NCBI GenBank assembly: GCA_964559215.1
Contig: CAZLFZ010000003.1
Coordinates: 18,779 to 82,778 of the forward strand
DNA: 64,000 bases
From: an uncultured archaeon
GTDB lineage: Archaea; Aenigmatarchaeota; Aenigmatarchaeia; QMZP01; JAFGSV01
Direction: 5' to 3'
A program made the position numbers and the translations under genes. Below, one piece after another: positions 19,813 through 39,325 of the stretch (positions within the stretch are counted from its first letter, which is position 1; every line of letters starts with the position of its first letter). The notes beneath the pieces were generated by a model. That model saw only the letters and a program-made list of their open reading frames with translations. It was not told the DNA's origin and made no database searches.

Positions 19813-20540
19813 TTATTTCTTACCCTTGTTTTTCCCCACATCTTTCGCTTTTTTCTTTTTCTCTTTCCGCTGCTTGCCATAGTCCTTTTGCACGCGCTTT
19901 GTGTCCTCAGCGGTTTCCAGCAGTTTAGCCATACTCTTTTCTGCCTGTTCTTCTTTCTCAGCTTCTTCCTTGATGTGTTTCTCAATCGCCCTTACATCCT
20001 CCAGCTCCTCGAGCAATTCCAATCCCTTTTTTTGTTCTTCAGCATCTTTTTTGGTAAGCTTTGGGAGCTTTTTCAACTCCCCCTTTTTCTTCTCGTAGTC
20101 CTTTTGCACGCGTTTTATGTCCTCTAACTTTTCCATTAGTTCGTTTTCCCTCTTCCATATTTTTTCCTGCTTCTCGGCCTTCTGTTCGGACTCTTTTTCC
20201 AGGGCCTTGGTATTCTCCAGCTCCTCGAGCAGCTTCAGCTCTTTGTCCCTCTTCTCGATTTCTGATTTCTTCAGTTTCTTTACCTTTATCCTTGTTCCGG
20301 TCTTTTTCAACCATTTATCGTATTGTTTCTGTACCCCCTTCATATCCTCAGCTTTTTCGAGCACAGCAAACCATCTTTTCTCTTTCCTTCTCTTAACTTT
20401 CCTGTCAGTTTCTTTCTGAACGGCTTTTACATCTTCAAGCTCTTCAAGCATCTGCTCTGTTGCTATTTGCTTTGCCTTCTCCTTCTTTCTCGGCTCCCTT
20501 GTTTTTTTCGGCAAGCCGGAGGGGAGTCTCGCCCCTGACA
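19813..20540. repeat. tandem coding repeats of about 215-220 bp (6 copies of the LEELEDxKxVQKDY motif) in the cytoplasmic tail
   Basis: Recurring DNA strings ctccagctcctcgagca (about 19995, 20215), gtccttttgcacgcg (about 19883, 20098) and tcttcaagctcttcaagca (about 20437). These generate the low-complexity artefact ORFs seen on the plus strand. Confidence 0.6.
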
Positions 20541-23500
20541 GTTTCCAGGCCCACAATATCCAGAAAATGAATGCAAGTGCTATGAGTATGAACTGCCACA
20601 GTTCGTCAGGGATGTGTGTCACTATTTCCCATGTGTAGGTTTTCTCGATCCAGACGATACCGGCGATCATTGCCAGATTGCTGAGATGCATGAGCGGCAG
20701 GCCAATGACCAATCCCAGCGCCCTCTTTCTGCCCGTGACACCCACCGTAGCTAATACAAGCGCTGCGTAGATGAGTAGGGACTCCAATCCCGTCACCTGC
20801 ACAGCTCTGGTGACGGCATCAGCAAGTGGGATGAAACCCAGCACATTCGTGATGAAAAGTACTTCTTCCCTGACGACTGCCTGCACAATGCTCATGTCGG
20901 GACGCAGCCAGCGTATAAGATACACCGGGATGCAGAACACGAGAAGCCGGAGCGCAAAGTACAAGAGGTATACCCCCTTCCGCTGCATCGCACTCGATTT
21001 CGTTGAGGCGATGGCCCACCTGAGCGAACGTAAAATCAGTACGGGGAACTTAAAGAGCTGCGAAAGAATGTACCGGGGCCGCACGATTTCGTGTAGCTTC
21101 TTTCCATTTTCCTCTATTAGACTGCTTATCTCAAGCAGCCTGTCATGCTCTTTGGTGATTATCTTCAGGTACGTGGCTTTATCGATTTGCCTGGTGAAAT
21201 ACTGAGCCTCTGTTGATTCTTCTGTTTTGGCAGTTATTTTTGCCTCTTCTCCCAACTTCCTGGTCTCTTTTTTCAGCCTGTAGAGGGGGATGAAGAGCTG
21301 GGTTGTAAAGAAGCTTGCGAAGAAGATGGCAAGTGCTATTCCTGTGATGTACCATTTGTTCTCAAACAGGAACTTTTGAATCCCCACCCTGGCTAATCCA
21401 AGTCCAATTTCATTAATCCCCATTTCTATCCTGGAAATTGAAATCCTTAATTCTTCCAGATCGTCCATTTTTATAGCATCCATTGACTCCGAAATCGTTT
21501 TTTCGATGTTCTTTACCTTTCCATGCAAGGCGCCAACATCAACGCCTGCCTTGGCATACTCATTGACCCTTAAAACCAAGTCTGGTACCTGTTTTTCCAG
21601 CCCATTTAAAGAAGTAATCAAGGGGTTTTCAAGCACAACGATATTTACACTTTTACTTTTCTCCAAATCAGCAGTGCCTATTCTAACAGTTAGCAAATAC
21701 TCTCTCAACTCTGTGTTAAGGGGCACGTGGATAATTACCGAAAAATCTATTTCGCCCTTAACGGGCAAATAAAATTCTTTGTCTATGAAGACAGCACAAC
21801 ACTCCTTTGTTATGTTAGAGCTCAGGTTGAGATCAAGGTTTCCCATGTTAGCAATGGAGCCGATAACCGTCCCGTTCTCACCCCCAACTATTTCAATAAC
21901 CCTGGTGTCAACTGTCACGTTAAAATTCTCAGTCCAAATTATGCATGCCGGGTCTCTGGCACAGTCTGTGTCACCGCAATCCACAAATCCGTCACAATCG
22001 TTGTCAAGCCCATCAGAGCAATTCTTTGGAGTTGGGACACATGTAACATTGCTTATGTTGCCGACAATGCTGGGTCCTCTTCCCCTACTTGGCGGGGGCT
22101 CTGCGGCTTCCTCGGCTTTCGTTTTAAGTGATAAAGAGCCAGGTCCTGTGTTGTTATACTCGTCTGTTGCATTAGCCGTCAAGTAAAATTCGATTCCTGG
22201 TGTTGAGGATGACCTGCAGTCAGCGGAAATGTTGTAATACAAATCACCGGTTCTTTCCAGTGAAAAATTGCCGTTGGGGCAAAACAGGGCCACGTTCACG
22301 GTGTAACCCAATAGTTCATTTCTTGAGTTATACACCTCTATCTGGGGTATGGGGGATATCCCGGAATTGGCAGAATACTCGGTCCCGGCAGGGGGCTGGG
22401 TGAATACGGGAAGCAGGCTGGAGCTTACGTTGAAATACCATGTACCGTTTCCCCTATTCTCCTGTTTTGACACATTTGCAAACATGGTGCAGTTTCCAGC
22501 TGGGTCGCTTTCATTTATCTGATAAGTATAGGTTGTGTTGGTTTCGTTGAATATCATTGCTTCGCTCTGGTTATATCTCGTCAGATTAACGGTCCAATTA
22601 ACCGAACTTACCAAATTGTCATTAACATCATAAACCTTGAGTGTCAGGGTTTCCCCTCTGCTATAAACAGATTCGTTCGTGGTCAGATTTAACGTGTACG
22701 AATCACTGACGTAGAAGGTGAGATTTTCCGGACAGCCCACATCCTCCCCGCTCTTTTTTTCATTATTGCCAATATCTACCGCTGTTATTCTTATCGTACA
22801 ATTCCCTGTTCGGTTTAATTCAAGGTTTTCTACATTATTTCCAGCACCGAATTTAAATTGCCAGATATCACTCGAAATCTTTTCCAAAGTCCCATTAACG
22901 CTGATGTTATCAGGATAGGTGATGTTGGCTCTTACAGATACGAGACTCACGTCATCTGTGGCATTCACAAAAATTGAAAGGGAAGTGAAAAGATTTGTTT
23001 TGTTCACCCCTATCCCACTGTAGTTGAACCAGAAATCGGTCACATTTGGTGGTATGGGGTCTTCCAGTATAACATCTATTGACAGTGAAGAATAGTTAAA
23101 CCCTCCCTCTCTGGTGCTGGAATTCACATAAGTCGTTGTGTTTGTCACGCCAACAGCACTTGCGTTTATGCTCCAATTAACAGAAGAAGAGGAGCCACTC
23201 GGGATAAAAGATATGTTTTTCGTCCAATTTTCACCAGCGCTTATGTTCAAGATAGTCTGATTCTCGATACTAAGGTTTATGGTTAAATTCCTGAGATCGC
23301 CATTGTCCGCGGAAACCAGGGTTTTGTACGTCTTTGTTTCGCCCTTAATTATGACTTCCGGCGCATCTATCGACACCAGGGACTCTCCAAAATTGACCAC
23401 AAAGCTTGCATTATTCCTGACAGAACTATCCTGGGTGTAAACGGTGGCGTTAACGATGTGAGCACCGGACAGTGTTATGTTCGTGTAATTAAACTCATAG

Positions 23501-25857
23501 ACATAGCACATGGAAACTCTTTCCTCTGCTGTAAATAATCTGAACTCATAGATTATCAGGACAGCTGACGAGGAGTGATTTACCCTTATTTGGTTTGTTC
23601 TGAAGGGCGAGAATCCGGAAAATTCAGTCAAATTCTTGTCGTCGGGCGGGTTCACATCGGTGAAAAGAGGCATCCATGCACCGCTTTTTTTGTATAAAAT
23701 AGAAACATTTGCCTGACCGGCGCCATCCTCCCATAAGGCCTCGATTCTATCAAAGGTATAGCTGTCATTCAGCGTTATCTCAAGCCATGATGGGGTTTCA
23801 TCGCCAATCCAGGCAGTGTCAGTATTGTTGTCTATAGACAAGTTGCAGGACCCGACGTTGCAATTACCGCTTGTCCCTAAGTCAAGTAGCGCAACATTTT
23901 GACCTGTTCCTGTCCCAGCTTCTACACATTCGCTTTCATTTAGAATAGCAACCAATGCAGAGCTTGTGAAATCAACCCCAGCTAAATAGGGCTTTTCTAT
24001 GCTGAAGTTCAGCATATTTATGGGTGTCACATTTCCCACCACCTCTGTCCTTAGGGTTGTGTCGCCTGTGATGTTTATTGTGCTTGGAAATACAGTAATG
24101 TCTGGTAAAATAACTTCGTGTGAAATAGAATCCTCAGCACCAGTGCCATTGGCAGGGGTTGCATGCAAAGAGACACGTGTAAATCCTTCCTGTTTTGACT
24201 CTGCTTCCCATTTCACCGTTATTGTTGTCCCGTTTGTAATATTATACAGCTCCGGTTTGGACCACGTTCCCCCGGGGGTGAGGTTCAGAACACTTCGGTC
24301 CGTGATATTTAAAGTCAAATTCACCTGCATCAAATCCCCGTTTATAGCGGTAACGTTTACAGTGATGTTGCACGTTTGATTAGCAAGAATTCTGAAATTT
24401 GGAAAGATGAACTGGAGCTCAGTTGAGCCAAAACCCACCTCAAAGGAAAGATTGGTATAATCTTCAAAGTTTATATTCCCCAGGGTATCGTTTGCCCAGA
24501 CTTGCATTACATTATATGTTCCTAGCTGAGAAGTATCGTTCCACTCATAGATCCAGAAATCAGTGCCACTAGAATTAGAAAGAGTTACATTAACCTCTGT
24601 CCCATTTGGATACATAAAAGTCGCATTAACCGCGCTAACACCACTCGTGTCGTTTACTGTTACATTGAACAACACTCCATGACCAGGCTGGATTTTCGTC
24701 TCGTTCAACTGCGGGTTTGAAATTGTTGGACCTGTTGTATCATAGCTTAGTGTCTTCCATGCAGTACAATTATAGGTACCAGAGCAGTAGAATTCCATCT
24801 TTACTGGTATACCACCAACCCATTCAAGACACTCCCATTGTTGACAGACCTTCTTTGTTTCATCCCAAAAACTACAGTTCCATCTGTCACAGTAGTAGTC
24901 TGTTTCTGAGAATGCTCCATCGATTGAGCCTAAACACTCCCATTGATCGCAATAATTTCCATTCCAAGCAGAGCAATTCCATCCATTTGAACAATACCTG
25001 TCATACTCCTCTGAACTTTCAGCCCATGCTGTGCAGTTCCAAGCCTCGCAAACATCTCCATTCCAAACTATACAATCCCATACACCAGAACAATAAGAGT
25101 CTGCCTTTTGAGTTGATCCCTGAGCCCATTCGGTGCAATTCCAAATGTCACAATTAGTTCCGTTCCAGTTTGTACAGTTCCAGATGCCAGTAGAATAGTA
25201 ATCAGAGTCGTCATTTTCACTAAGAGACCAAGCTGTACAGTTCCAGTATCCACAATACCCCCCATTCCACTCTAGGCAATCCCAGTCACCAGAACAATAC
25301 ATAAGTCGTCTATCTTTTCCGCTGTTTGTCCACCCCTCGCACTTGTATTCTGCACAAGTAACCCCATTCCAACGTGTGCAGTTCCAGTTGCCTATACAGT
25401 ATTTTGACTGCTTGTCATCATCATATGTCCATGCCGTGCAGTTCCATAATTCACACTTCTCTGTAGTCTGTCCATAATCATTTAACTGGATTGGGGATTC
25501 ATCAAAATTATTGCCATCTGCCGGTCCCTTATCACTTACCCAAAAACCTTCAGACGACATAAAGAATGCGAGTGTCGCTTTTGGAGTAGCTGATACTAAA
25601 GGAATAAAGAAAAAAATGGTAAATAAAGAAATTAAGAAAACACCGAAAAACATACCTCCTTTTTTTCTACGCAGGATGTTTCTAAAAGGTCTCCGCCTGG
25701 GCTTGTGTTTCTTTCTAATTTCTTTCAACTTTTTTGTTGCCCCAGAGAAATCCTGACCAAGATAAACGTTGATGACCCGGCCATCCTTGTCCCTGAAGCT
25801 TTCATAATAATAAGGCCCGTGAATTTTTTTGCCTCTTTTTATATACTTCTTGTACAC
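19813..25857 (-). CDS. giant cell-surface glycoprotein (2014 aa): cytoplasmic N-terminal motif, signal-anchor, Cys/Trp repeat array, sequon-rich Ig/CARDB-like region, multi-TM segment and Lys/Glu-rich cytoplasmic repeat tail
   Basis: Complete ORF in the track. N-terminus MYKKYIKRGKKIHGPYYYESFRDKDG followed by TM FFGVFLISLFTIFFFIPLV. About 7 copies of WNCTAW..YCSG.W(N/D)C..WNG..C. More than 100 NxS/T sequons. About 7 predicted TM helices near the C-terminus, then LEELEDVKAVQK(D/E)Y repeats. Confidence 0.85.
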   Translation of the reverse strand: MYKKYIKRGKKIHGPYYYESFRDKDGRVINVYLGQDFSGATKKLKEIRKKHKPRRRPFRNILRRKKGGMFFGVFLISLFTIFFFIPLVSATPKATLAFFMSSEGFWVSDKGPADGNNFDESPIQLNDYGQTTEKCELWNCTAWTYDDDKQSKYCIGNWNCTRWNGVTCAEYKCEGWTNSGKDRRLMYCSGDWDCLEWNGGYCGYWNCTAWSLSENDDSDYYSTGIWNCTNWNGTNCDIWNCTEWAQGSTQKADSYCSGVWDCIVWNGDVCEAWNCTAWAESSEEYDRYCSNGWNCSAWNGNYCDQWECLGSIDGAFSETDYYCDRWNCSFWDETKKVCQQWECLEWVGGIPVKMEFYCSGTYNCTAWKTLSYDTTGPTISNPQLNETKIQPGHGVLFNVTVNDTSGVSAVNATFMYPNGTEVNVTLSNSSGTDFWIYEWNDTSQLGTYNVMQVWANDTLGNINFEDYTNLSFEVGFGSTELQFIFPNFRILANQTCNITVNVTAINGDLMQVNLTLNITDRSVLNLTPGGTWSKPELYNITNGTTITVKWEAESKQEGFTRVSLHATPANGTGAEDSISHEVILPDITVFPSTINITGDTTLRTEVVGNVTPINMLNFSIEKPYLAGVDFTSSALVAILNESECVEAGTGTGQNVALLDLGTSGNCNVGSCNLSIDNNTDTAWIGDETPSWLEITLNDSYTFDRIEALWEDGAGQANVSILYKKSGAWMPLFTDVNPPDDKNLTEFSGFSPFRTNQIRVNHSSSAVLIIYEFRLFTAEERVSMCYVYEFNYTNITLSGAHIVNATVYTQDSSVRNNASFVVNFGESLVSIDAPEVIIKGETKTYKTLVSADNGDLRNLTINLSIENQTILNISAGENWTKNISFIPSGSSSSVNWSINASAVGVTNTTTYVNSSTREGGFNYSSLSIDVILEDPIPPNVTDFWFNYSGIGVNKTNLFTSLSIFVNATDDVSLVSVRANITYPDNISVNGTLEKISSDIWQFKFGAGNNVENLELNRTGNCTIRITAVDIGNNEKKSGEDVGCPENLTFYVSDSYTLNLTTNESVYSRGETLTLKVYDVNDNLVSSVNWTVNLTRYNQSEAMIFNETNTTYTYQINESDPAGNCTMFANVSKQENRGNGTWYFNVSSSLLPVFTQPPAGTEYSANSGISPIPQIEVYNSRNELLGYTVNVALFCPNGNFSLERTGDLYYNISADCRSSSTPGIEFYLTANATDEYNNTGPGSLSLKTKAEEAAEPPPSRGRGPSIVGNISNVTCVPTPKNCSDGLDNDCDGFVDCGDTDCARDPACIIWTENFNVTVDTRVIEIVGGENGTVIGSIANMGNLDLNLSSNITKECCAVFIDKEFYLPVKGEIDFSVIIHVPLNTELREYLLTVRIGTADLEKSKSVNIVVLENPLITSLNGLEKQVPDLVLRVNEYAKAGVDVGALHGKVKNIEKTISESMDAIKMDDLEELRISISRIEMGINEIGLGLARVGIQKFLFENKWYITGIALAIFFASFFTTQLFIPLYRLKKETRKLGEEAKITAKTEESTEAQYFTRQIDKATYLKIITKEHDRLLEISSLIEENGKKLHEIVRPRYILSQLFKFPVLILRSLRWAIASTKSSAMQRKGVYLLYFALRLLVFCIPVYLIRWLRPDMSIVQAVVREEVLFITNVLGFIPLADAVTRAVQVTGLESLLIYAALVLATVGVTGRKRALGLVIGLPLMHLSNLAMIAGIVWIEKTYTWEIVTHIPDELWQFILIALAFIFWILWAWKLSGARLPSGLPKKTREPRKKEKAKQIATEQMLEELEDVKAVQKETDRKVKRRKEKRWFAVLEKAEDMKGVQKQYDKWLKKTGTRIKVKKLKKSEIEKRDKELKLLEELENTKALEKESEQKAEKQEKIWKRENELMEKLEDIKRVQKDYEKKKGELKKLPKLTKKDAEEQKKGLELLEELEDVRAIEKHIKEEAEKEEQAEKSMAKLLETAEDTKRVQKDYGKQRKEKKKKAKDVGKNKGKK
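24750..25440. repeat. array of about 34-residue Cys/Trp-rich repeats (WNCTAW..(x11)..YCSGxW(N/D)CxxWNGxxC) within the giant protein
   Basis: Visible in the translation: WNCTAWTYDDD.., WNCTRWNGVTC, WDCLEWNGGYCGYWNCTAWSL.., WNCTNWNGTNCDIWNCTEWAQ.., WDCIVWNGDVCEAWNCTAWAE.., WNCSAWNGNYCDQWECLG.., WNCSFWDE... Each unit carries an N-C-T sequon. Confidence 0.65.
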
Positions 25858-26083: not shown

Positions 26084-26854
26084 CTATTGTTTGTCAAAAA
26101 GGCTCTGCGCCTGGACATCTATCCCTTTGTTGGTAATCGTGAAATTGTAATACCCTTCGGTGAACGCAGAGCCACGTATCTTTTGTATGCTCAATCCCCT
26201 ATATGCTTTCCCCTCGCTATGCACATAGTCTAATTGTATGACCCCGTCAGCAATGAATTTCAACTGTTGCCAGTAGCCTGTTTCCGCCTCAACGGTAACC
26301 AGGGCGGTGACACCCAATTTTGCTATGTGTTTAAAGAAGGTCATGGCTCCCATCCTCGCCAGCGACTCAGAATCTGCCATCAAACTGATCGCGGTCAGGG
26401 GGTCTATGACCAAGCGTCGTGCACCAATTTCATTGACCGCCTCCTTGATAAGTTCAATGAGCGTATTGGTCGAAAGAAAATGGACACTTTTTTGGGCTTG
26501 TGACGTTGAACTAGTATATGCCGATAAAGCATTCTCAATATCACTAGAGACCGCCCTTATGTAAGGGATCACGCGGACCAAGTTTTCCCTTTCCAGTTTC
26601 TCTAGATCCCAGCCAAAGGATTTGATATTGCTTAACATCTTTGGCTTATCTTCTTCCAGATTGACGAGGACGCCCGGCTCCTTGAACTTGGCTGCACCAT
26701 TATAGATGAACTCCAACCCAAATATAGTCTTCCCTGTTCCGCAACCGCCAGTAATCACATAGATTTTCTTTTCTGGCAACCCTCCGTTTAAGAGTTCATC
26801 TAACCCTGCTATCCCGGTTTTGACCCGTTTCGGACCTGGTCTTTTTTCGCCCAT
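26084..26854 (-). CDS. single-domain KaiC-like ATPase
   Basis: GIAGLDELLNGGLP, Walker A GGCGTGKTIF, ..LVIDPLTA..; 256 aa. Confidence 0.9.
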   Translation of the reverse strand: MGEKRPGPKRVKTGIAGLDELLNGGLPEKKIYVITGGCGTGKTIFGLEFIYNGAAKFKEPGVLVNLEEDKPKMLSNIKSFGWDLEKLERENLVRVIPYIRAVSSDIENALSAYTSSTSQAQKSVHFLSTNTLIELIKEAVNEIGARRLVIDPLTAISLMADSESLARMGAMTFFKHIAKLGVTALVTVEAETGYWQQLKFIADGVIQLDYVHSEGKAYRGLSIQKIRGSAFTEGYYNFTITNKGIDVQAQSLFDKQ

Positions 26855-26861: not shown

Positions 26862-27410
26862 TCACCTACCCTTTTCCTTACCCGTAAATATAATTTTATC
26901 AGAAAACATGCCCAAGTTTTTTATGAAATCTTCGTGCGCATCTTCTTCGAGACAGATAAAAATGCACCCCTTCTCAGATATTCTAAGCTTCGATACCAGC
27001 AAGTGCGTGAACTTGATGGCACTTGCCTGACTCCCATAGACCAAAAGGGTGGACAAGGAATCAAACAAGATGCAATCCACGTGCATGAGCAATGCCTTGG
27101 TAACCGTTATGCTCAATTCGGTGAGCGCATCAGGAGAAGATACAAATAACACCTGCCCTTCTTTCTGTTTTTCATCTACCCCCTTTACACAATCTATAAA
27201 AAGTATCTTCTTCGTATCGATTCCTCCCCCTTTAAATTCCTTTGTCAAGGTCGTGTACGGCTTGTTAAGAGACAAGTAACATATCATATTATGAATCTTT
27301 GTAGCAGCGCCAACAATCTCCTCTAGGGCGGTTCTATAGTTTTTGCTGGGAACAACAAAAACAACGACTTGATTTTCCTTCATCTCCATCTCTAGGTTTA
27401 TTTTCAGCAT
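26862..27410 (-). CDS. Walker-A-less KaiC/RecA-fold small protein (MEDS-like), 182 aa; operon partner of the KaiC at 26084-26854 (7-nt gap)
   Basis: Aligns along the KaiC core, but the P-loop is replaced (VVVFVVPSKNYRTALEEI). Conserved FIDCV ... ILFDSLSTLLVY ... FICLEED shared with three paralogs in the window. Confidence 0.75.
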   Translation of the reverse strand: MLKINLEMEMKENQVVVFVVPSKNYRTALEEIVGAATKIHNMICYLSLNKPYTTLTKEFKGGGIDTKKILFIDCVKGVDEKQKEGQVLFVSSPDALTELSITVTKALLMHVDCILFDSLSTLLVYGSQASAIKFTHLLVSKLRISEKGCIFICLEEDAHEDFIKNLGMFSDKIIFTGKEKGR

Positions 27411-27540: not shown

Positions 27541-28089
27541 ATGAAAAGTTTGGAAAGTTTAAACAAAATCCTTGAAAATGTGCTGAAAAAGAGGGCAATA
27601 ATTCTGCTCTCGTTTCTAAGCAAGGAATACAGAACTGGGATGACGAATCTAATAGCCTTTGCGACACACACGTTCAATAAGACCTGCTACGTCACGCTTA
27701 ATGATCCCTACGAAAGTATAGCCAGCAGGCTGGATGAGGAGCAGAAGTCCAAGCTGTTCTTCATAGACTGCATGACGGCTACGATCAAAACACCGGAGAC
27801 AAAAGAAAATGTGGTTTTCGTGTCGTCACCCCACGCTTTGACGGAGATGAGCATAGCATTAAAAAAAGTCATGGAAAAGGAAAAAATTGATTTTGTCATA
27901 TTTGATTCAATTTCAGCTTTGCTGGTTTATGAACAACCCTTATCGGTCCTGAAATTCGTTCATAGCCTAATCCTGATGTCCAGGGAAGCGAATCTGGGTA
28001 ACTCTTTTGTAATCCTGAAGGAGGATGTCAGCGAGCAATTGATGAAAGACCTGGCCATGTTTGTTGACAAAATTGTGGAGGTGGTATGA
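27541..28089 (+). CDS. Walker-A-less KaiC/RecA-fold small protein (MEDS-like), 182 aa
   Basis: Paralog of 26862-27410 (FFIDCMTA .. VIFDSISALLVYEQ .. VILKEDV). The stop TGA at 28087-89 is immediately followed by the GTG start of the PAS protein. Confidence 0.75.
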   Translation: MKSLESLNKILENVLKKRAIILLSFLSKEYRTGMTNLIAFATHTFNKTCYVTLNDPYESIASRLDEEQKSKLFFIDCMTATIKTPETKENVVFVSSPHALTEMSIALKKVMEKEKIDFVIFDSISALLVYEQPLSVLKFVHSLILMSREANLGNSFVILKEDVSEQLMKDLAMFVDKIVEVV

Positions 28090-28998
28090 GTGGTCGAAGG
28101 GATTGAAGATTTGATGAAAACCAGGGAAATCTACAGGGAACTCGCCGATACAGAGGGTGACGCAATTATAATTTTGGATTCAAAGGGCAAATTTGTGTTT
28201 TTGAACAAAGAGGTTGAGATAAAGACTGGTTATACGGAAAGCGAATTGATAGGAAAAGTGTTTACGAAGCTGTTGACGAAGCCCAGTGTATTAAAAGCTC
28301 TCTCCACTTCCCGAAAGGCTTTGTCAGGTGCACGGGTTAACCCGTATGAAATCGAAATCAAAAAAAAGGACGGAAGCATTATACCTGTGGAGGTTCAGGC
28401 AACGCCGATAAAGAGGAAAGGCAAAGTAATCGGGTTTCTGGTGATTGCAAGGGATCTCACCGAACGGAAGAAAGTAGAGGAGGAACTGAGGATTAAGGAA
28501 AGCGCCATAAAATCGTCCATCGATGCCATTGCAATGTCAGACCTTAATGGCAATCTGACATACGTGAATCCATCCTTTCTCAAGATGTGGGGATATGATA
28601 ACGAAAAGGAGGTTCTGGGGAAGCCAGCTGTAGGGTTTTGGCAGACGGAAGAGAAGGCTTCAGAGGTAGTAGTGGCCTTGCGTGACACGGGAAGCTGGAA
28701 GGGTGAACTGGTCGCCAAAAAAAAGGACGGCTCAATGTTATATGTCCAGCTTTTGGCAAGCATGACTAAAGACGAGAATGGCAAACCCATCTCCATGATG
28801 TCTTCATTTATAGACACCACTGCTCGCAAGAGGGCTGAGGAGGAGCTAAAGAAAAAGACAGAAGAACTGGAGAAATCGAAGAAAGAACTGGAAGCAAAGA
28901 TTCATGACCTCGAAAGGTTCAGCAAGATGTCTGTCGGCAGGGAACTGAAGATGGTTGAATTGAAGAAGAGGATAAAGGAATTGAAAAACGGGGGATAA
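28090..28998 (+). CDS. double PAS (S-box) domain protein with C-terminal coiled-coil module and no recognisable output domain
   Basis: Two PAS-like blocks (..ADTEGDAIIILDSKGKFVFLNKEVEIKTGYTESELIGK.., ..IDAIAMSDLNGNLTYVNPSFLKMWGYDNEKEVLGK..); C-terminal ELEKSKKELEAKIHDLERFSKMSVGRELKMVELKKRIKEL. Confidence 0.85.
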   Translation: MVEGIEDLMKTREIYRELADTEGDAIIILDSKGKFVFLNKEVEIKTGYTESELIGKVFTKLLTKPSVLKALSTSRKALSGARVNPYEIEIKKKDGSIIPVEVQATPIKRKGKVIGFLVIARDLTERKKVEEELRIKESAIKSSIDAIAMSDLNGNLTYVNPSFLKMWGYDNEKEVLGKPAVGFWQTEEKASEVVVALRDTGSWKGELVAKKKDGSMLYVQLLASMTKDENGKPISMMSSFIDTTARKRAEEELKKKTEELEKSKKELEAKIHDLERFSKMSVGRELKMVELKKRIKELKNGG

Positions 28999-29064: not shown

Positions 29065-30462
29065 ATGAGGGGCGTCAATATGAGCAGGGAGGTAAAAACA
29101 ATTGCCTTTTTCGCATTGCTTTTTTTAACAATATTCATATCGGGATGTGTAACTCAGGAAGATGTTTCCCTTGGGGCTGGAGAAACGCAACAGCCAGAGG
29201 TTCAGGAAAAAACAAAACTTGTCTATGCAGTCCACTGGATGGATGAAACCCAGATAAACGGAACTTATGAGAATGGTGAACTGAAATCAAAGGGTTTAGT
29301 ACATTATCTGAACGAATATGAGGAATTGCACCCCGAAATAGAATTCGAGATAATGCAAATTACATACTCAGAATATGAAAGCAAACTCAGAATCCTGCAT
29401 GAACTTGATGAGGTTCCCGACATTTATCAGGTTTATTCTACATGGGGGGTTTCTCACCAAAACTTAGGCATATTGGACGAACCGCCTCAGGAGATAAAGG
29501 ATGATGTTGCCCAAAATTACACATCAACCGCGGGTGTTACAATAAATGGTGATACATGGGGTATTCCCACGGAAATCAACGTCTTCGCCCTCCTTTATAA
29601 CAAGGCGCTTTTCAAGGAAGCAGGAGTTATTGATGAGCAAGGGGAGCCAAAGATCCCCGTGACCTGGAATGAACTGATTGATGCGGCATCGAAAATAACA
29701 AAAAAAGACAGCGAGGGCAATATTATACAATATGGTTTTGCTTTCTCAAAAGGAATGGACTGGGGTGTGGTAGATCCTTTCCTATGCCTGTTAGTCAGTA
29801 ACGGCGGAAAATATCTATCGGATGATAACAGCCAGTGTCTTGTCAATAGTTCAGAGGGTGTCGAGGCACTGGAAAAGATATTGGAATTGTTTAGCAAAGG
29901 TGGAACTGATGCGTACGGTGATGTTATCAGTGGTTTCGGAGAAGGCAAGACAGCGATGATTTTAATGCCTCCTTGGGTGGAAGGAATGTTTAGGGACGCC
30001 CTTGGTGATAAATTTGATACGGATGTGGGCGTTGCCCCTGTTCCCTATCTGAAAAAACCCGGTACTTTGCAGTATAGCTGGTTCATGGGCGTATTGAGTA
30101 AAAGTAAACATAAAAAGGAGGCGTGGGAGTTCCTTAGGTGGTTCACTTCAGAGATTCAGCCAAAGACAGGTACGACAAGGTATGGTGATCTGTTAACAGA
30201 TCCTATTGGCGCTATCCCAAGCAGGAGGTCAGATATTGAGGGTAATAAGGATAAACTAAATACACCATTCAAGAGGGTATTTGTTGAAGAACTAGAAAAT
30301 TCTGTCCCAGAGCCAAACATAATGCAGGCTTCCCAAGTAAAGAATATATTGATGGGCGAGATTGAGTCGGCATGGGCTGGTGAAAAAACTGCTAAAGAAT
30401 CTTTGGACTCAGCGTGTGCTAAAATAAATGAAATTCTGGCGAAGTATTATCCGCAAAAGTGA
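29065..30462 (+). CDS. extracellular solute-binding protein (ABC-type, family 1/MalE-like), lipoprotein-like signal (…ISGC)
   Basis: Signal peptide plus Cys; 465 aa with the typical SBP_bac_1 architecture (..WGIPTEINVFALLYNK.. ..MPPWVEG..). An alternative start is at 29080. Confidence 0.8.
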   Translation: MRGVNMSREVKTIAFFALLFLTIFISGCVTQEDVSLGAGETQQPEVQEKTKLVYAVHWMDETQINGTYENGELKSKGLVHYLNEYEELHPEIEFEIMQITYSEYESKLRILHELDEVPDIYQVYSTWGVSHQNLGILDEPPQEIKDDVAQNYTSTAGVTINGDTWGIPTEINVFALLYNKALFKEAGVIDEQGEPKIPVTWNELIDAASKITKKDSEGNIIQYGFAFSKGMDWGVVDPFLCLLVSNGGKYLSDDNSQCLVNSSEGVEALEKILELFSKGGTDAYGDVISGFGEGKTAMILMPPWVEGMFRDALGDKFDTDVGVAPVPYLKKPGTLQYSWFMGVLSKSKHKKEAWEFLRWFTSEIQPKTGTTRYGDLLTDPIGAIPSRRSDIEGNKDKLNTPFKRVFVEELENSVPEPNIMQASQVKNILMGEIESAWAGEKTAKESLDSACAKINEILAKYYPQK

Positions 30463-31451
30463 GAAATTTGAAATTCAAAATAGGCAGGTTAACGATTAAA
30501 ATAACTCTTTTCATAATCTCTTTGATATTCCTGTCTTTATTTGTTTTTTCCTTTGTTTTTTTACTGTCTGAGCAGAACAAAATGTCCGAGGAAATACTGG
30601 AAGATGGGCTGATTTTCGCAGAGTTCATTACGCGTTCTATATATGATGACTATGTGAGGGAGTATACCCATATTCATTCGCAGGAAGGTTTCGATGGATT
30701 TAAGGAGGGTGTAGAGCAAAAACTGGACAAAAACAAGGATGTAACCAAAGTCTCTTTAGTTGGTATAAACGGAAAAGTTATTTTCGATTCTGATGAATTC
30801 AAAGAAGGCAAAAAATATAACGGGTCGGGGAGATTTATTGAGGATTCTGTTACTTTGGGGCTTCTTAAAAACGAAGATGTGTCTTACTTGAAAAGGCAAT
30901 TAAATGGCGAAGATATCATTGAAATAGTCATGCCGATAGAGGAAACGTCAGGAGGCCATCTCATGTCAATGAGATATATCGTTTCTTATAATTCTCTTAT
31001 AGAAAGAATGGCTGAAGTATACCAGCAAATTCTTTTGATAATTGTGCCCATATTCATAATTACTTTTGTTTTGACAATCACCTTTTCGATAAGTTTAACC
31101 AAACCAATTATTATGTTAAGGGGGTTGACCGAAAAGGTAAGAAAAGGTAATCTGAGTGTGAAAATTAATCTAAAAACCCGTGACGAGATAGGAGAGCTCG
31201 CATCCTCATTCAACCAGATGACAAAGGACCTGAAGGAGTCTAGGAAAGGGCTGGAAGAATACAGCAAGGACCTGGAAAAAGAAGTAAAAGAGAGGACTGT
31301 TGAACTTGAGAAATCCAAAAAAGAGCTGGAAGCAAGAAACGAGGAGCTCGAACGGTTCAACAAGATGGCGGTGGGCAGGGAACTGAAGATGGTTGAATTG
31401 AAGAAGAGGATAAAGGAATTGGAAAACGAACTTAAAAAGAAGCAGAAATAG
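30459..31451 (+). CDS. membrane sensor: TM - extracytoplasmic domain - TM - HAMP - coiled coil, no kinase domain
   Basis: GTGA overlap with the upstream stop. HAMP: IIMLRGLTEKVRKGNLSVKINLKTRDEIGELASSFNQMTKDL. The C-terminal ELEKSKKELEARNEELERFNKMAVGRELKMVELKKRIKELE is almost identical to the C-terminus of 28090-28998. Confidence 0.8.
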   Translation: MRNLKFKIGRLTIKITLFIISLIFLSLFVFSFVFLLSEQNKMSEEILEDGLIFAEFITRSIYDDYVREYTHIHSQEGFDGFKEGVEQKLDKNKDVTKVSLVGINGKVIFDSDEFKEGKKYNGSGRFIEDSVTLGLLKNEDVSYLKRQLNGEDIIEIVMPIEETSGGHLMSMRYIVSYNSLIERMAEVYQQILLIIVPIFIITFVLTITFSISLTKPIIMLRGLTEKVRKGNLSVKINLKTRDEIGELASSFNQMTKDLKESRKGLEEYSKDLEKEVKERTVELEKSKKELEARNEELERFNKMAVGRELKMVELKKRIKELENELKKKQK

Positions 31452-31525: not shown

Positions 31526-32623
31526 ATGGTAGCAGAAAAATTGGCTAGTGGTTATGGAAAAGTCATAATACCTGTCATATTGATATTGATTATCGTTGCT
31601 GCAGTTTCGTCTTTTTATCTGTTACCTTTCGGTGAGGAAGGACCGCAATCAGCGAGTGGAACTTCGGGGGTGCCTGCACAAAAATTCAAAATTCTTCATA
31701 TCATGAGTTACCACTCTCCTTGGAAATGGACCGACGATCAGCTTGATGGATTCAAGGATGCCATGGCTGGCATAGATGCGGAATATCGGGTATTCCAGAT
31801 GGACACCAAGCGGAAAAGTAGTGAGGAATGGATGCAAGAAGCCGCCCGGCAGGCGCGAGAATTAATCGATACGTGGCAGCCTGATTTGGTATACACAAAC
31901 GATGATAATGTCCAGGAGTATGTTGTCAAACATTATGTAAATTCTGATACACCGTTCGTATTCAGTGCGGTCAACGCGGATCCGTCTGTTTACGGGTTTA
32001 CAGGAAGCAGCAATGTTGCCGGGATACTTGAGGAGGAGCATTTCGTGCAGACTGTGAATTTGCTGAGACAAATTGTGCCAAATGTCAAGAAGATAGCGGT
32101 TATTTTTGACGAGGGCTTGACATGGATAGGGGTACGTCAAAGGATGGAAGAAAAGGCGCCAAAACAGCTTCAAGATATAGAGTTCGTAAGCTGGGACACG
32201 ATTCACACCTTTGAAGAGTACAAGCAGAGAATAGGGGAGCTCCAAAACGAGGCGGATGCGATCGCACTTCTGGGTATATTCACGTTCAAGGACGAGAACG
32301 GCACCAATGTCCCCTATCAGGACGTGCTGGAATGGACGGCTGAGAACAGCAACCTGCCCGACTTCAGCTTCTGGGAAGACCGCATATCTTATGGTACACT
32401 ATGTGCCGTAACTGTTTCGGGGTATGAGCAGGGCCTGGCGGCAGGTGAGATCGCAAGGGGCATTCTGGTTGATGGCAAAAGCCCGCCAAGCTTCCCATTC
32501 GAGCCAACAGTCAAGGGAGAGCCGGTCATAAGCCTTGCAAGGGCGAATAAATTGGGACTCCAAATAAGCAGCGAACTGCTTTTGTCTGCGGATATCATCG
32601 AAACGTTTGAATGGGAGAAGTAA
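31526..32623 (+). CDS. ABC-type substrate-binding-like protein (COG2984/PF04392-type), the kind commonly paired with sensor kinases
   Basis: N-terminal TM; periplasmic-binding-protein-like fold signature; the stop TAA abuts the ATG of the histidine kinase at 32624. Confidence 0.7.
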   Translation: MVAEKLASGYGKVIIPVILILIIVAAVSSFYLLPFGEEGPQSASGTSGVPAQKFKILHIMSYHSPWKWTDDQLDGFKDAMAGIDAEYRVFQMDTKRKSSEEWMQEAARQARELIDTWQPDLVYTNDDNVQEYVVKHYVNSDTPFVFSAVNADPSVYGFTGSSNVAGILEEEHFVQTVNLLRQIVPNVKKIAVIFDEGLTWIGVRQRMEEKAPKQLQDIEFVSWDTIHTFEEYKQRIGELQNEADAIALLGIFTFKDENGTNVPYQDVLEWTAENSNLPDFSFWEDRISYGTLCAVTVSGYEQGLAAGEIARGILVDGKSPPSFPFEPTVKGEPVISLARANKLGLQISSELLLSADIIETFEWEK

Positions 32624-34351
32624 ATGAAGAACCTTAGCGTTCGCGCTAAGATAATTTCGATTTCAACACTAATAATGCTTTTTGCACTTAGCTTAAACAG
32701 TTTTTATAGCGGTAATTTCTTCGCGGCTGAATATTCCAAAGCCCTCCATTCAAAGTCATTAAACGTAGGGCAGGTTTTAACGCAACGCTTAGGCGTCTTG
32801 CTTGAATTGGGAATAGACATAAATGGAATTGTGGGTTTCGAAAAACAATGCAAAGATGTAGTCGAGAACTACGAGGAAATCTCGTATGCCATGGTCGTGG
32901 ATTTAGACGGCAAGATAATTTTTCACAACGACCCTTCCCAACACGGCAAAACATTGACTAATCATGAAGTTCTAATGGTGATAAAAACCGAGAATAGTAC
33001 CACTAGACAGCACTCCATTGAAGGGGAGAAATTCTATGGCAGCTTTGTCCCTGTCTTTGGCAAAGATAAAAACCACATCGCAGCAATTATGGTAGGGGTT
33101 CCTGTGAGTTTTATTGAAGAAAAGATGCGAAACATGTTCATGAACTCTCTCATGGTTACGATTTTATTTCTGGTTATTGGCATATTGTTGTTGATTACTA
33201 CGCTTTCCATGTGGGTAACAAAACCGCTTGGAAAATTGGTCGATGTGATTCGGGAAATAGGGGAGAAGGGCAAACTTAGCAAAAAGGTTAGAATCAATTC
33301 CGATGACGAGATAGGACAGCTCGCCTCCGCATTCAACCAGATGATAGATGATTTAAAGGGGTCGAGGATTAAGCTAGAGGAATACAGCAGGTCTCTGGAA
33401 AAAAGGGTCACCGAGAGGACAAATGAACTGAATAAAAAAGTCGAGGAAGTGACAAAGACGAAAACGGCCATAATGAACATGATGGAAGATACGGACGAGG
33501 CGAACAAACAGCTTATAAAAACCCAGAAGGAACTGAAGGAAAGCTTGAGGGAACTGAGAGAAATGGACATAAAGAAGGATCAGTTCATATCAATCGCAGC
33601 GCATGAACTCAAGACTCCACTGACATCCATTCACGGATTCTCGCAGTTGCTTCAAGATAGGAAAATTGCAAATAAGTTCACGAGGAGGAACAGATACCTT
33701 AAGATAATGGAACATGAAAGCAAAAGGCTTGCCGGGCTTGTGAGCAATATTCTTGACCTATCCAGGCTAGACCTCGGGACGGTGAAGCTCAGTCTTGAAC
33801 CAGTTGATATGAACGAACTAATGGAGGATTTAAAAAAGGAAATGAGTATACCGGTAGAGGAGAAGGGGCTGGAATCGAAATATGAAATAGAAAAAGAGTT
33901 GCCAAAAATTTTAACAGACAGGGAGAGGGTGACCGAGATATTGATAAACTTCATAAACAACGCTTTGAAGTACACGTCGAAAGGTAAAATAACGGTAAAG
34001 GTTTCCAGGGAAAAGAAAAATCTGCATTTCATGGTCAAGGACACGGGAATAGGCATATCAAAAGAGAACCACGAAAAGATATTCCAGAGGTTCTATCAGG
34101 TGGATTCATCCTATACAAGAAAGGCAGGGGGGACAGGTCTTGGCCTGTCCTTGTGCAGGGAATTCCTAAAAATACTCGGCGGGGAGATATGGGTAAAGAG
34201 CGAACTGGAAAAGGGGAGTGAATTCCACTTTACACTGCCCATCAGAGGCGTTTCAAAAGAGCATCTCTGGGAGGAGGAAGCAAAGGCTAAAGAGAGTCTC
34301 AAAAAAGCAGAGGAAGTGATAAAAAGTGTGGAAATACTGAGCGGAAAATAA
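32624..34351 (+). CDS. sensor histidine kinase (TM-sensor-TM-HAMP-coiled coil-HisKA-HATPase_c)
   Basis: HAMP KPLGKLVDVIREIGEKGKLSKKVRINSDDEIGQLASAFNQMIDDL; H-box ISIAAHELKTPLTSIHGF; N/G-boxes ..INNALKYT.. DTGIGIS..GGTGLGLSLC. Confidence 0.9.
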   Translation: MKNLSVRAKIISISTLIMLFALSLNSFYSGNFFAAEYSKALHSKSLNVGQVLTQRLGVLLELGIDINGIVGFEKQCKDVVENYEEISYAMVVDLDGKIIFHNDPSQHGKTLTNHEVLMVIKTENSTTRQHSIEGEKFYGSFVPVFGKDKNHIAAIMVGVPVSFIEEKMRNMFMNSLMVTILFLVIGILLLITTLSMWVTKPLGKLVDVIREIGEKGKLSKKVRINSDDEIGQLASAFNQMIDDLKGSRIKLEEYSRSLEKRVTERTNELNKKVEEVTKTKTAIMNMMEDTDEANKQLIKTQKELKESLRELREMDIKKDQFISIAAHELKTPLTSIHGFSQLLQDRKIANKFTRRNRYLKIMEHESKRLAGLVSNILDLSRLDLGTVKLSLEPVDMNELMEDLKKEMSIPVEEKGLESKYEIEKELPKILTDRERVTEILINFINNALKYTSKGKITVKVSREKKNLHFMVKDTGIGISKENHEKIFQRFYQVDSSYTRKAGGTGLGLSLCREFLKILGGEIWVKSELEKGSEFHFTLPIRGVSKEHLWEEEAKAKESLKKAEEVIKSVEILSGK

Positions 34352-34363: not shown

Positions 34364-34732
34364 TTACTCCAGCGCTTTCTTTACCCTTTTGACGAGGTCC
34401 TGGTTGTCAAAAGGTTTCGTGATGTAATCCAGAACATCCATCTTTTCCAGAACATCCTTCCCCGCCTCTGAGAATTTTGCCACAGTGAGGAATGCGATTT
34501 TCAAGTCCTTTGTTTCAGGGTCCTTCCTTATACTTTCACAGACTTCCCTTCCACTCATCCCTGGCATCATCATATCAAGCAAGATGAGATCGGGTTTCAC
34601 CGTTTTCAGTTTTTCCAGGCATTCCTTTCCGCTCATGGCCGGGATTACTTCGTAGTTCTCTTGTTCCATAAGCGCCTTAACAAGCTCGACCAAACTTTCC
34701 TCATCATCCACGATCATTATTTTTTTTGCCAT
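34364..34732 (-). CDS. single-domain response regulator (CheY-like receiver)
   Basis: IMIVDDEE ... DLILLDMMMPGMSG ... KIAFLTVAK; 122 aa. Confidence 0.9.
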   Translation of the reverse strand: MAKKIMIVDDEESLVELVKALMEQENYEVIPAMSGKECLEKLKTVKPDLILLDMMMPGMSGREVCESIRKDPETKDLKIAFLTVAKFSEAGKDVLEKMDVLDYITKPFDNQDLVKRVKKALE

Positions 34733-34871: not shown

Positions 34872-35444
34872 CTAATCCGGCTTCTCTGTCATGTCAACAG
34901 TAGTGTCAGCAAACATACACAAGTCTTTTATCATACCCTGATTTTCTCCACCTGGCAAACCACTTCCTTTAAGGACGATGTAGATTTTCTTGGTTTTTTC
35001 CTGCATCTTGTCAGTCATTATTTCGTGCGTGAACCTAACGATGGAATAGCTCTCCTGGTATATCAGCAGGGACGAGATGGTATCAAATATTATCACGCTG
35101 CATTTTTTCTCCATGATGACCTTTTCTATCGCCAGTCTTATCGAAACCAGTTCTGGTGGTGCTTCCAAAAAGATGCAGTTTTTAACGGGTTTTGGCTTAA
35201 AGTAATGCGAGCTAAGGATATCTATGAAGAAGAAGTTTTTGTCATTGACGCCTATTCTCTTTAAATCCTCAATAACATCCTTGTAGGGTTTTGACAGGCA
35301 GACATAGCATATTTTTGTTTTGGTTTCCCCTATGTTTTTTACTATATCTTTCAATTTCATTTCATACTGCTTCTCTTCAAGCAGCAGCATCAGAAACCTT
35401 GACTTGGTTATTTCTTGCAGCAAATTCATACCATCCTGCTCCAT
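34872..35444 (-). CDS. Walker-A-less KaiC/RecA-fold small protein (MEDS-like), 190 aa
   Basis: Paralog of 26862-27410 and 27541-28089 (FFFIDILS .. IIFDTISSLLIYQE .. IYIVLKGS). Confidence 0.75.
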   Translation of the reverse strand: MEQDGMNLLQEITKSRFLMLLLEEKQYEMKLKDIVKNIGETKTKICYVCLSKPYKDVIEDLKRIGVNDKNFFFIDILSSHYFKPKPVKNCIFLEAPPELVSIRLAIEKVIMEKKCSVIIFDTISSLLIYQESYSIVRFTHEIMTDKMQEKTKKIYIVLKGSGLPGGENQGMIKDLCMFADTTVDMTEKPD

Positions 35445-39289: not shown

Positions 39290-39325
39290 GTTTAACTTTT
39301 TTATCCAGATGTTTAAATTTTATAT

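What the first reader, a model, noticed from the sequence alone, without database searches (positions are those of the whole stretch)
28860..28998. Near-identical C-terminal coiled-coil module shared by the PAS-PAS protein and the HAMP sensor (second copy 31300-31451)
Both output-less sensors end in ELEKSKKELEA(K/R)..ELERF(S/N)KM(S/A)VGRELKMVELKKRIKEL. A 47-bp stretch (ggcagggaactgaagatggttgaattgaagaagaggataaaggaatt) is identical at 28936-28982 and 31374-31420, which implies gene conversion or strong shared constraint. The module sits where a DHp/HisKA helix would be (F-x-KM-x-VGRELKM vs F-x-x-N-M-SHELRTPL) but lacks the phosphorylatable His. A plausible reading is that kinase-dead DHp-like stubs heterodimerise with the neighbouring histidine kinase or another common partner such as KaiC.
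Basis: partly seen in the sequence, partly recalled or inferred. Interest (0 to 1): 0.55.

Follow-up and report, generated by a model that had tools for sequence, protein, structure and literature searches.

The report
Conserved C-terminal coiled-coil cap on sensors
Two sensor proteins in this archaeal window end in the same short helical "cap"; the same unnamed cap ends thousands of otherwise output-less sensor and response-regulator proteins in bacteria and archaea, so it is probably their output element, although what it binds is unknown.

Summary
Both genes end in ...ELERF(S/N)KM(S/A)VGRELKMVELKKRIKEL, and 47 bp are identical at 28936-28982 and 31374-31420.

Protein constraint does not explain the DNA identity. 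Other genomes encode the same peptide with different codons. All 15 comparable codons in the tract are identical, against 11 of 19 just upstream. A related population carries a hybrid gene made by one crossover inside the tract. Gene conversion or recombination between the paralogues is the best reading.

The module is not a generic coiled coil. It is a signalling helix (ERT motif) followed, a whole number of heptads later, by a nearly invariant cap, V-G-R-E-L-(K/R)-M-(V/I)-E-L-K-x-x-I-x-x-L. It is always at the C-terminus. It occurs on PAS, GAF, HAMP, Cache and receiver-domain proteins with no enzymatic output, in DPANN archaea, CPR bacteria, Geobacter relatives and others. No Pfam, NCBIfam or PDB entry covers it.

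The "kinase-dead DHp stub" idea fails the profile tests. The module does sit where a DHp helix would begin, and histidine kinase genes are frequent neighbours. KaiC-like neighbours occur only in archaeal loci.

The most likely function is an in-trans docking output helix. The partner is unidentified.

The parts
28090..28998 (+). PAS-PAS sensor gene ending in module copy 1 (302 aa)
   Evidence: ORF. Pfam finds two PAS domains and nothing after residue ~255.
28843..28998 (+). Module copy 1: signalling-helix-like coiled coil (KKT at 28852-28860 in place of ERT) plus cap (GRE at 28936-28944), then a 4-residue tail and the stop codon
   Evidence: The spacing from KKT to GRE is 28 residues, which is 4 heptads.
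28936..28982 (+). 47-bp tract identical to 31374-31420: the conversion tract, and the crossover site in related strains
29065..30462 (+). SBP_bac_1 periplasmic solute-binding protein gene. Its stop overlaps the start of the HAMP sensor gene.
30459..31451 (+). Transmembrane-HAMP sensor gene ending in module copy 2 (330 aa)
   Evidence: The AlphaFold2 model of residues 205-330 has one continuous helix from HAMP AS2 to the C-terminus.
31281..31451 (+). Module copy 2: signalling helix (ERT at 31290-31298) plus cap (GRE at 31374-31382), then the tail ENELKKKQK
31374..31420 (+). Second copy of the 47-bp identical tract
31526..32623 (+). ABC_sub_bind periplasmic binding protein gene, directly upstream of the kinase gene
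32624..34351 (+). sCache-HAMP-HisKA-HATPase histidine kinase. Its HAMP/signalling-helix DNA (33266-33436) is 70% identical to 31143-31313.
34364..34732 (-). Single-domain response regulator, 70-81% identical in related DPANN loci
27541..28089 (+). DUF7504 / inactivated-KaiC-like gene abutting the start of the PAS-module gene. This adjacency is conserved in L008, L024 and L038.
26084..26854 (-). KaiC-family ATPase gene
26862..27410 (-). DUF7504 / KaiC-like paralogue
34872..35444 (-). KaiC-like paralogue (weak Pfam KaiC match)

Best explanation
Shown: each module is a signalling helix (S-helix, ERT-type coiled coil) extended by a nearly invariant C-terminal cap with consensus ELERFNK-h-h-V-G-R-E-L-(K/R)-M-(V/I)-E-L-K-x-x-I-x-E-L-E. 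A short variable tail and the stop codon follow. The cap belongs to a very large, unnamed family that always ends the protein. It replaces the enzymatic output domain on PAS, GAF, HAMP, Cache and receiver-domain proteins across bacteria and archaea.

Inferred mechanism: the sensor or receiver domain changes the register or rotation of the parallel dimeric S-helix, as in kinases and cyclases. That movement is read out at the cap. The cap carries a polar Arg layer (GRE) in the same heptad position as the Arg of ERT. It also carries a second, outward-facing conserved hydrophobic seam (V, L, V at b, f, b). I propose the cap docks in trans onto a conserved partner, or onto other cap-bearing proteins, and so acts as a protein-interaction output. 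The partner is not identified. Two-component proteins encoded nearby are the leading candidates, with inactivated-KaiC proteins as an extra candidate in DPANN archaea.

The 47-bp identity between the two copies in this window comes from recent gene conversion or recombination between the paralogues. The same tract served as the crossover point for a 2.4-kb deletion in a closely related population.
For: Family and position:
- A scan of genome contigs with one peptide pattern gave at least 525 confirmed matches. They came from DPANN archaea, CPR bacteria, Desulfuromonadota, Nitrospirota, Planctomycetota, Verrucomicrobiota and others.
- In 76 loci, all 117 core matches lie 8-43 residues from the stop.
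- An HMM of the cap found 181 C-terminal hits and no significant internal hit.
- An exhaustive profile search found 4,637 cluster representatives at E<=1e-10. Of the best 150, 147 end with the module, two carry tandem copies, and one is a kinase matched only through its PAS linkers.

Output-like role:
- 107 module proteins carry only input or transducer domains: PAS 58, GAF 22, HAMP 21, receiver 10, plus Cache, PocR, MASE3 and others. No HisKA, HATPase, GGDEF or EAL appears among the 25 of 29 matched families that were listed.
- Ten are receiver-...-module proteins, and two of these have nothing else.

Structure:
- The spacing from the Arg of ERT to the Arg of GRE is a multiple of 7 in 192 of 200 proteins. 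It is 21 in 150 of them and 28 in both window copies.
- ERT occupies heptad positions c, d, e according to PMC1592074.
- AlphaFold2 predicts one continuous helix with pLDDT 98 through GRE.
- The b, c and f positions of the cap are as conserved as a and d.

Context:
- 19 of 77 immediately downstream genes are HisKA/HATPase kinases, 12 contain receiver domains, and about 18 are periplasmic binding proteins that precede the next sensor.

Conversion:
- 15 of 15 comparable codons in the tract are identical, against 11 of 19 in the 5' flank (Fisher p = 0.0045).
- Locus L005 encodes the identical peptide with 6 synonymous differences. The longest identical run between a window copy and any other genome is 23 nt.
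- Among 93 between-genome pairs with equal or higher peptide identity, the longest run is 37 nt.
- The hybrid allele in L001-L004 matches copy 1 at 20 of 20 diagnostic sites 5' of the tract and copy 2 at 7 of 7 sites 3' of it.
Against: - No partner was found. No single neighbouring gene family is shared by all loci.
- Neighbouring kinases and regulators are diverse. An invariant cap fits poorly with paralogue-specific docking.
- No multimer prediction or experiment was possible, so the docking step is inference only.
- The loci were collected with the pattern EL[KR]MVELK, which inflates the apparent invariance of those columns. The HMM-based hits show the same core with some variation.
- The count of 20,585 hits at E<=1e-3 is inflated by the PAS-linker part of the profile.
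- The hybrid allele comes from metagenome assemblies. Chimeric assembly across a 47-bp repeat is unlikely, since four assemblies agree, including a Logan contig that runs straight through the repeat. It was not excluded by read mapping.
Confidence: 0.6

Rival explanations
1. Kinase-dead DHp stub. The cap is a degenerate HisKA helix-1 with Arg in place of the phosphorylatable His. It inserts into, or heterodimerises with, the DHp bundle of a neighbouring histidine kinase and modulates it.
For: The cap lies exactly where DHp helix-1 begins, after the S-helix. The upstream coiled coil aligns weakly with the pre-DHp coiled coil of kinases (hhalign probability 40%). There is a local likeness between G-R-E-L-K and S/A-H-E-L-K/R. 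Kinases are the commonest immediately downstream gene, 19 of 77. The HAMP/S-helix of the window's HAMP-module gene is a paralogue of the kinase's.
Against: hhalign of the cap against the H-box region gives 0.6% probability. HisKA is not among the 25 most frequently matched Pfam families at E<=10 for the 115 modules. No kinase appears in the PDB profile search. Aligning Arg to His needs a one-residue shift, and the hydrophobic spacing after it differs from HisKA (read directly from the sequences). There is no second helix. Ten family members are response regulators, which places the cap downstream of phosphotransfer. The cap is invariant, whereas DHp specificity residues vary between paralogues.
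Confidence: 0.15
2. Homotypic hub. Caps of different paralogues bind one another to form mixed four-helix bundles, so the many cap-bearing sensors of one genome form mixed oligomers that pool signals. Gene conversion keeps the caps compatible.
For: Several paralogues sit in one locus with near-identical caps, up to 5 in L031 and L037. Paralogues from the same locus share longer identical DNA runs than proteins from different loci. Small transmembrane proteins exist with two caps in tandem (P0034, P0155). The cap has a second conserved hydrophobic seam.
Against: No cap-bearing protein with an enzymatic or DNA-binding output was found, so a pure cap-cap network has no exit. AlphaFold2 gives a straight helix with no fold-back. 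Oligomeric state was not tested.
Confidence: 0.15
3. The cap is a KaiC or inactivated-KaiC binding motif that ties PAS/HAMP sensors to the archaeal KaiC signalling hub.
For: The window has one KaiC gene and three DUF7504/KaiC-like genes around the sensors. A DUF7504-like gene abuts the PAS-module gene here and in L008, L024 and L038. KaiC-like genes occur in 11 of 28 archaeal loci. KaiC-like ATPases have been proposed as archaeal signalling hubs (Makarova et al. 2017, as cited in PMC5847659).
Against: None of the 48 non-archaeal (mostly bacterial) loci has a KaiC-like neighbour, yet the cap is equally conserved there. The association may be with archaeal two-component clusters in general rather than with the cap.
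Confidence: 0.08
4. The cap is only a stabilising terminator of the dimeric stalk with no output role. The proteins act as ligand sinks, or as decoys that heterodimerise with full-length kinases through their PAS/HAMP parts.
For: No partner was identified. The locus looks dispensable: related strains have deleted one sensor gene and truncated and frameshifted the other.
Against: A mere zipper would not keep outward-facing b, c and f positions and the G-R-E layer nearly invariant across phyla. It would not keep a fixed heptad phase relative to ERT. It would not be the sole addition to receiver domains.
Confidence: 0.1
5. The 47-bp identity reflects a DNA- or RNA-level element, such as a structured RNA or a binding site, embedded in both genes.
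For: Perfect identity at all synonymous sites.
Against: No Rfam match in 27500-32700. The fold energy is not unusual (z = -1.17). Other genomes encode the same peptide with different codons. In L009 the identical tract between paralogues covers a different part of the module.
Confidence: 0.02

Closest known systems
Signalling helix (S-helix) of Anantharaman, Balaji and Aravind 2006 (PMC1592074)
   Same: The first ~40 residues of the module are an S-helix. They have an ERT signature (KKT in the PAS copy), form a parallel coiled coil of about 5 heptads, and follow directly after HAMP, PAS or receiver domains. The Arg of the cap's GRE falls in the same heptad position (d) as the Arg of ERT, 2 to 5 heptads later (commonly 3; 4 in both window copies).
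   Different: An S-helix is described as a connector between an input domain and a downstream catalytic domain. Here nothing follows except a 17-residue invariant cap and a short tail. In the cap the outward-facing positions are also conserved, whereas the paper reports S-helix conservation concentrated at positions a, d, e and g.
DHp / HisKA (PF00512) helix 1 of histidine kinases
   Same: Same position in the protein, right after the S-helix. Both are dimeric helices. There is a local string likeness, x-E-L-(K/R).
   Different: No phosphorylatable His, no helix-2 or hairpin, no CA domain, no profile similarity, and a different hydrophobic spacing.
Receiver domains with coiled-coil-only outputs (for example HalX-type regulators discussed in PMC5847659; FrzS/AglZ-type from my own knowledge)
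   Same: Ten family members are receiver domains followed only by helical coiled coil. The output must therefore act by protein-protein contact.
   Different: No sequence relationship was tested or is expected. The cap is much shorter and is also used by PAS, GAF and HAMP sensors.
Anti-kinase proteins that bind the DHp bundle (Sda, KipI; from my own knowledge)
   Same: A possible functional analogy: a small helical element regulating a kinase in trans.
   Different: No homology and no evidence of kinase binding here.

Membership tests
HisKA / DHp domain (PF00512) | Conserved phosphorylatable His in an H-box (h-S-H-E/D-L-R/K-T-P-L) | tested here: not met
   Both copies read V-G-R-E-L-K-M-V-E-L. 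There is no His anywhere in the cap, and Arg and Glu are invariant in 271 of 271 family members examined.
HisKA / DHp domain (PF00512) | Helix-turn-helix hairpin (alpha1-alpha2) forming a four-helix bundle in the dimer | tested here: not met
   Only 8-43 residues follow the 10-residue cap core. The AlphaFold2 model is a single continuous helix to the C-terminus.
HisKA / DHp domain (PF00512) | Significant sequence or profile similarity to HisKA | tested here: not met
   No Pfam HisKA hit on the full proteins at E<=0.01. HisKA is not among the 25 most frequently matched families for the 115 modules at E<=10. hhalign of the cap against 38 DHp regions gives 0.6% probability. No kinase in the PDB profile search.
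Signalling helix (S-helix) | ERT signature at heptad positions c, d, e in the central heptad of a ~40-residue parallel coiled coil | tested here: met
   The HAMP copy has ERT at 31290-31298 and the PAS copy has KKT. In alignment A2, E is present in 65, R in 74 and T in 79 of 115 sequences. The heptad assignment is from PMC1592074.
Signalling helix (S-helix) | Lies between an upstream sensor or receiver domain and a downstream catalytic or output domain | tested here: not met
   The upstream sensor is present. No downstream domain exists in either window protein. None appears among the 25 listed Pfam families for 107 relatives.
   G, R, E, L, M, E, L and K are invariant or nearly so. The module is exclusively C-terminal in 117 of 117 and 181 of 181 hits. 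Its phase relative to ERT is fixed in 192 of 200 proteins.
KaiC-associated signalling component | Consistent genomic association with KaiC-family genes | tested here: inconclusive
   11 of 28 archaeal loci and none of the 48 non-archaeal (mostly bacterial) loci have a KaiC/DUF7504-like gene within about 6 kb. The adjacency to the PAS-module gene is conserved in four DPANN genomes, counting this window.

The most novel reading that the evidence does not exclude
The GRELKM cap is an unrecognised, widespread output module of prokaryotic signal transduction. Thousands of PAS, GAF, HAMP and receiver proteins now annotated as output-less or as 'PAS domain S-box protein' would then signal through this 17-residue helix to one conserved, still unknown cellular target. 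That target would be shared by Geobacter-like bacteria, CPR bacteria and DPANN archaea.
Probability: 0.4. Interest if true: 0.75.

Novelty: new variant of a known kind. Interest (0 to 1): 0.55.

Why it matters
Sensor proteins with no recognisable output domain are a long-standing loose end in censuses of microbial signalling. A large share of them, including response regulators, turn out to end in one invariant cap phased with the signalling helix. That turns a vague category into a defined family with a testable prediction: a common binding partner.

Members occur in cultured strains, including Geobacter sp. OR-1 and Desulfobulbus elongatus DSM 2908, so pull-downs and cap mutations are feasible.

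The family is also prominent in the small genomes of CPR bacteria and DPANN archaea, whose signalling is almost unknown.

Locally, the two caps are a concrete case of gene conversion between paralogous sensor tails. The identical tract has also acted as a recombination site that deleted a sensor gene and its binding-protein gene in a sister population.

Tried and rejected
- DHp homology: tested with Pfam at permissive thresholds, a PDB profile search and hhalign against 38 kinase DHp regions. All negative.
- Named families: nothing in Pfam, NCBIfam or PDB covers the module.
- Literature: full-text search for the motif strings found nothing relevant. Searches on output-less sensors, the S-helix and coiled-coil outputs found no description of the cap.
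- Internal copies of the cap in neighbouring kinases: none found.
- A specific conserved response-regulator subfamily as partner: the regulators are conserved among DPANN loci but diverse in bacteria.
- A universal neighbouring gene family: clustering of 1,431 ORFs gave only binding proteins, FIST, KaiC-like and two-component genes, none of them universal.
- Helix break or hairpin at the conserved Gly: suggested by the G/D/N pattern, but AlphaFold2 predicts an unbroken helix.
- Stand-alone mini-proteins made of the module alone: the examples examined sit among fragmented ORFs and are probably remnants or miscalls.
- RNA element: no Rfam hit and no unusual fold.
- bZIP-like DNA binding: the weak Pfam bZIP hits cover only the zipper part and look like coiled-coil bias.

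Full report
**1. The observation**

The region holds a PAS-PAS protein gene (28090..28998, 302 aa) and a transmembrane-HAMP protein gene (30459..31451, 330 aa). Their C-termini are ...KKTEELEKSKKELEAKIHDLERFSKMSVGRELKMVELKKRIKELKNGG and ...KERTVELEKSKKELEARNEELERFNKMAVGRELKMVELKKRIKELENELKKKQK. Neither protein has any output domain in Pfam or NCBIfam.

The wider repeat is 144 nt at 83% identity. There are only two copies in the window.

**2. Why the DNA is identical**

- Codon identity. Within the tract, all 15 codons that encode the same degenerate amino acid are identical. In the 30 codons just upstream, only 11 of 19 are (Fisher p = 0.0045).
- No protein-level constraint on the codons. Locus L005 encodes the identical peptide VGRELKMVELKKRIKELE with six synonymous differences. 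No other genome shares more than 23 consecutive bases with either window copy. Among 93 between-genome pairs with equal or greater peptide identity, the longest identical run is 37 nt, against 48 here.
- A recurrent pattern. Paralogues in one locus generally share longer identical runs than proteins from different loci. The Nanoarchaeota relative L009 has a 51-nt run in a different part of the module.
- A hybrid allele. Four metagenome contigs (L001-L004, about 98% identical to the window) carry a hybrid gene. All 20 diagnostic sites 5' of the tract are copy-1 type and all 7 sites 3' of it are copy-2 type. The 2.4 kb between the copies, holding the binding-protein gene and the HAMP sensor gene, is missing. 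This is the product of one crossover inside the identical tract. It was found in three JGI assemblies and one Logan contig, so I consider it real, but I could not map reads.
- No RNA element. An RNA-level explanation has no support.

**3. What the module is**

The module is not a generic coiled coil.

- Distribution. A single-pattern scan of one genome per species returned at least 525 confirmed matches. They came from DPANN archaea (Aenigmatarchaeota, Nanoarchaeota, Woesearchaeota), Methanosarcinales, CPR/Patescibacteria, Desulfuromonadota including Geobacter, Nitrospirota, Planctomycetota, Verrucomicrobiota, Acidobacteriota and others.
- Position. In the 76 loci fetched, all 117 core matches lie 8-43 residues before the stop. 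An HMM of the cap gave 181 C-terminal hits and no significant internal hit.
- Family size. An exhaustive profile search of 1.84 billion representatives gave 4,637 hits at E<=1e-10. The looser count of 20,585 is inflated by the PAS-linker part of my profile. Of the best 150, 147 end with the module, two have it in tandem with the second copy at the end, and one is a kinase matched only through its PAS linkers.
- No existing name. No Pfam, NCBIfam or PDB entry covers it. I found no paper that mentions the motif.

**4. Anatomy**

- Two parts. The upstream part is a signalling helix with its ERT signature. The paper that defined the S-helix places ERT at heptad positions c, d, e (PMC1592074).
- Fixed phase. 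The distance from the Arg of ERT to the Arg of the cap's GRE is a multiple of seven in 192 of 200 proteins: 21 in 150, 28 in 20, 14 in 13 and 35 in 9. In both window copies it is 28. GRE therefore also sits at c, d, e, with Arg in a core d position.
- One helix. AlphaFold2 on the HAMP-to-C-terminus fragment, with 127 aligned sequences, predicts one continuous helix from HAMP AS2 to the end, with pLDDT 98 across GRE.
- Exposed conservation. In the cap, outward-facing positions are as conserved as the core: V at b, G (rarely D or N) at c, L at f, V/I at b, E at c. This differs from what the S-helix paper reports for the S-helix itself. It points to a second contact surface. Part of the apparent invariance comes from the pattern used to collect the loci, but the HMM-derived hits show the same core.

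**5. Role by position**

A Pfam scan of 107 cap-bearing proteins found only input or transducer domains: PAS 58, GAF 22, HAMP 21, receiver 10, plus Cache, PocR, HisKA_7TM, MASE3, CHASE8 and 5TMR-LYT. No HisKA, HATPase, GGDEF or EAL appears among the 25 of 29 matched families that were listed.

Ten proteins have an N-terminal receiver domain and the cap at the end. Two of these, about 230 residues long, consist only of a receiver, coiled coil and cap. The cap thus occupies the place of an output domain, including downstream of phosphotransfer.

**6. Context**

- Downstream genes. Of 77 genes immediately downstream on the same strand, 19 are HisKA/HATPase kinases, often 900-1,200 residues and followed by a small regulator. 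Twelve contain receiver domains. About 18 are periplasmic binding proteins that precede the next sensor.
- Upstream genes. These are mostly binding proteins, FIST proteins, kinases and regulators, plus two CheB-CheR-kinase fusions.
- KaiC. KaiC or DUF7504-like genes lie within about 6 kb in 11 of 28 archaeal loci and in none of the 48 non-archaeal (mostly bacterial) loci.
- Closest relatives. The window's closest relatives are DPANN genomes. There, a DUF7504-like gene directly precedes the PAS-module gene in L008, L024 and L038, as it does in the window. KaiC-like ATPases have been proposed as archaeal signalling hubs (cited in PMC5847659).

**7.

The cap does sit where DHp helix-1 begins. The coiled coil before it aligns weakly with the pre-DHp coiled coil of kinases (probability 40%). 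The cap itself does not align with the H-box (probability 0.6%). Pfam and PDB searches give only generic coiled-coil noise. There is no His and no second helix. Matching G-R-E-L-K to S-H-E-L-K needs a one-residue shift, and the hydrophobic spacing afterwards differs. I therefore do not file it as a DHp relative. Whether it touches a kinase is untested.

**8. Best explanation**

The two window proteins are members of a large family of sensors whose output is an S-helix plus cap. The sensor domain would alter the S-helix register or rotation, and the cap would present or hide its exposed seam and polar layer to a partner. The near-invariance of the cap across paralogues and phyla argues for a common target, or for cap-cap association, rather than paralogue-specific docking. 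I could not identify the target.

The family membership, the C-terminal exclusivity, the heptad phase and the conversion are shown. The docking mechanism is inferred.

**9. Verdict**

The finding is of moderate interest because it defines an unnamed but very common terminal module of "output-less" sensors and response regulators.

Noticed in passing
L001-L004 against window 28292-31451: Sister-population contigs carry a PAS gene whose 5' end is replaced by 124 unrelated bases before the equivalent of window 28292. They also have an extra A in two poly-A runs, which shifts the frame, and the hybrid module tail. The sensor locus looks as if it is decaying there.
   Followed up: partly
window 35640-41568: About 5.9 kb present in the window is absent from L001 and L002, with no repeat at the junction. 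In those contigs the HMGL-like gene (35544..36665) is cut to 67 residues and a KaiC-like gene follows directly.
   Followed up: no
window 31143-31313 and 33266-33436: The HAMP and signalling-helix coding DNA of the HAMP-module gene is 70% identical over 171 nt to that of the neighbouring histidine kinase gene. The output-less sensor and the kinase are therefore paralogues up to the point where cap or DHp begins.
   Followed up: partly
window 26862..27410(-), 27541..28089(+), 34872..35444(-), 26084..26854(-): Three paralogous ~180-residue DUF7504 / KaiC-like proteins with weak or sub-threshold Pfam matches, plus one full KaiC-family ATPase, surround the sensor genes. Orthologues in DPANN loci keep the same positions.
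   Followed up: partly
window 30459-30462 and 32623-32624: Each membrane sensor gene is preceded by a periplasmic binding-protein gene with an overlapping or abutting stop and start. The same pairing recurs in many bacterial loci, with Phosphonate-bd, ABC_sub_bind, SBP_bac_5 and Peripla_BP families.
   Followed up: partly
L054:1382-6153 and L057:1919-6153: In two Desulfuromonadales loci (a Pelobacter sp. MAG and a Geobacteraceae MAG), a ~1,080-residue protein that matches CheB methylesterase is followed, with abutting stop and start, by a receiver-...-cap protein. I read the large protein as a CheB-CheR-PAS-kinase fusion, but only the CheB match was seen.
   Followed up: no
P0034 and P0155 (metagenome proteins): Two small membrane proteins carry two cap modules in tandem, separated by a 30-50 residue linker. 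This could mean that caps pack against each other.
   Followed up: no
window 33470-33530 (kinase residues ~283-300) and kinases in L007, L008, L019, L024, L030: The DPANN kinases share a conserved A-x-L-N-M-M-E-D-x-D-E-x-N coiled-coil segment between the signalling helix and the DHp. This is another unnamed conserved linker motif.
   Followed up: no
window 19813..25857(-): A 2,014-residue predicted surface protein with many C-x-x-W-N-C-T-x-W repeats and a lysine- and glutamate-rich repetitive tail.
   Followed up: no
L039, L041, L050, L055, L069, L070: A subfamily of the cap, in Planctomycetota, Verrucomicrobiota, Acidobacteriota and Desulfobulbus, has a longer conserved tail: ...ELK-x-E-(I/V)-N-x-L-C-x-x-L-G-x-P-P-x-Y.
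   Followed up: no
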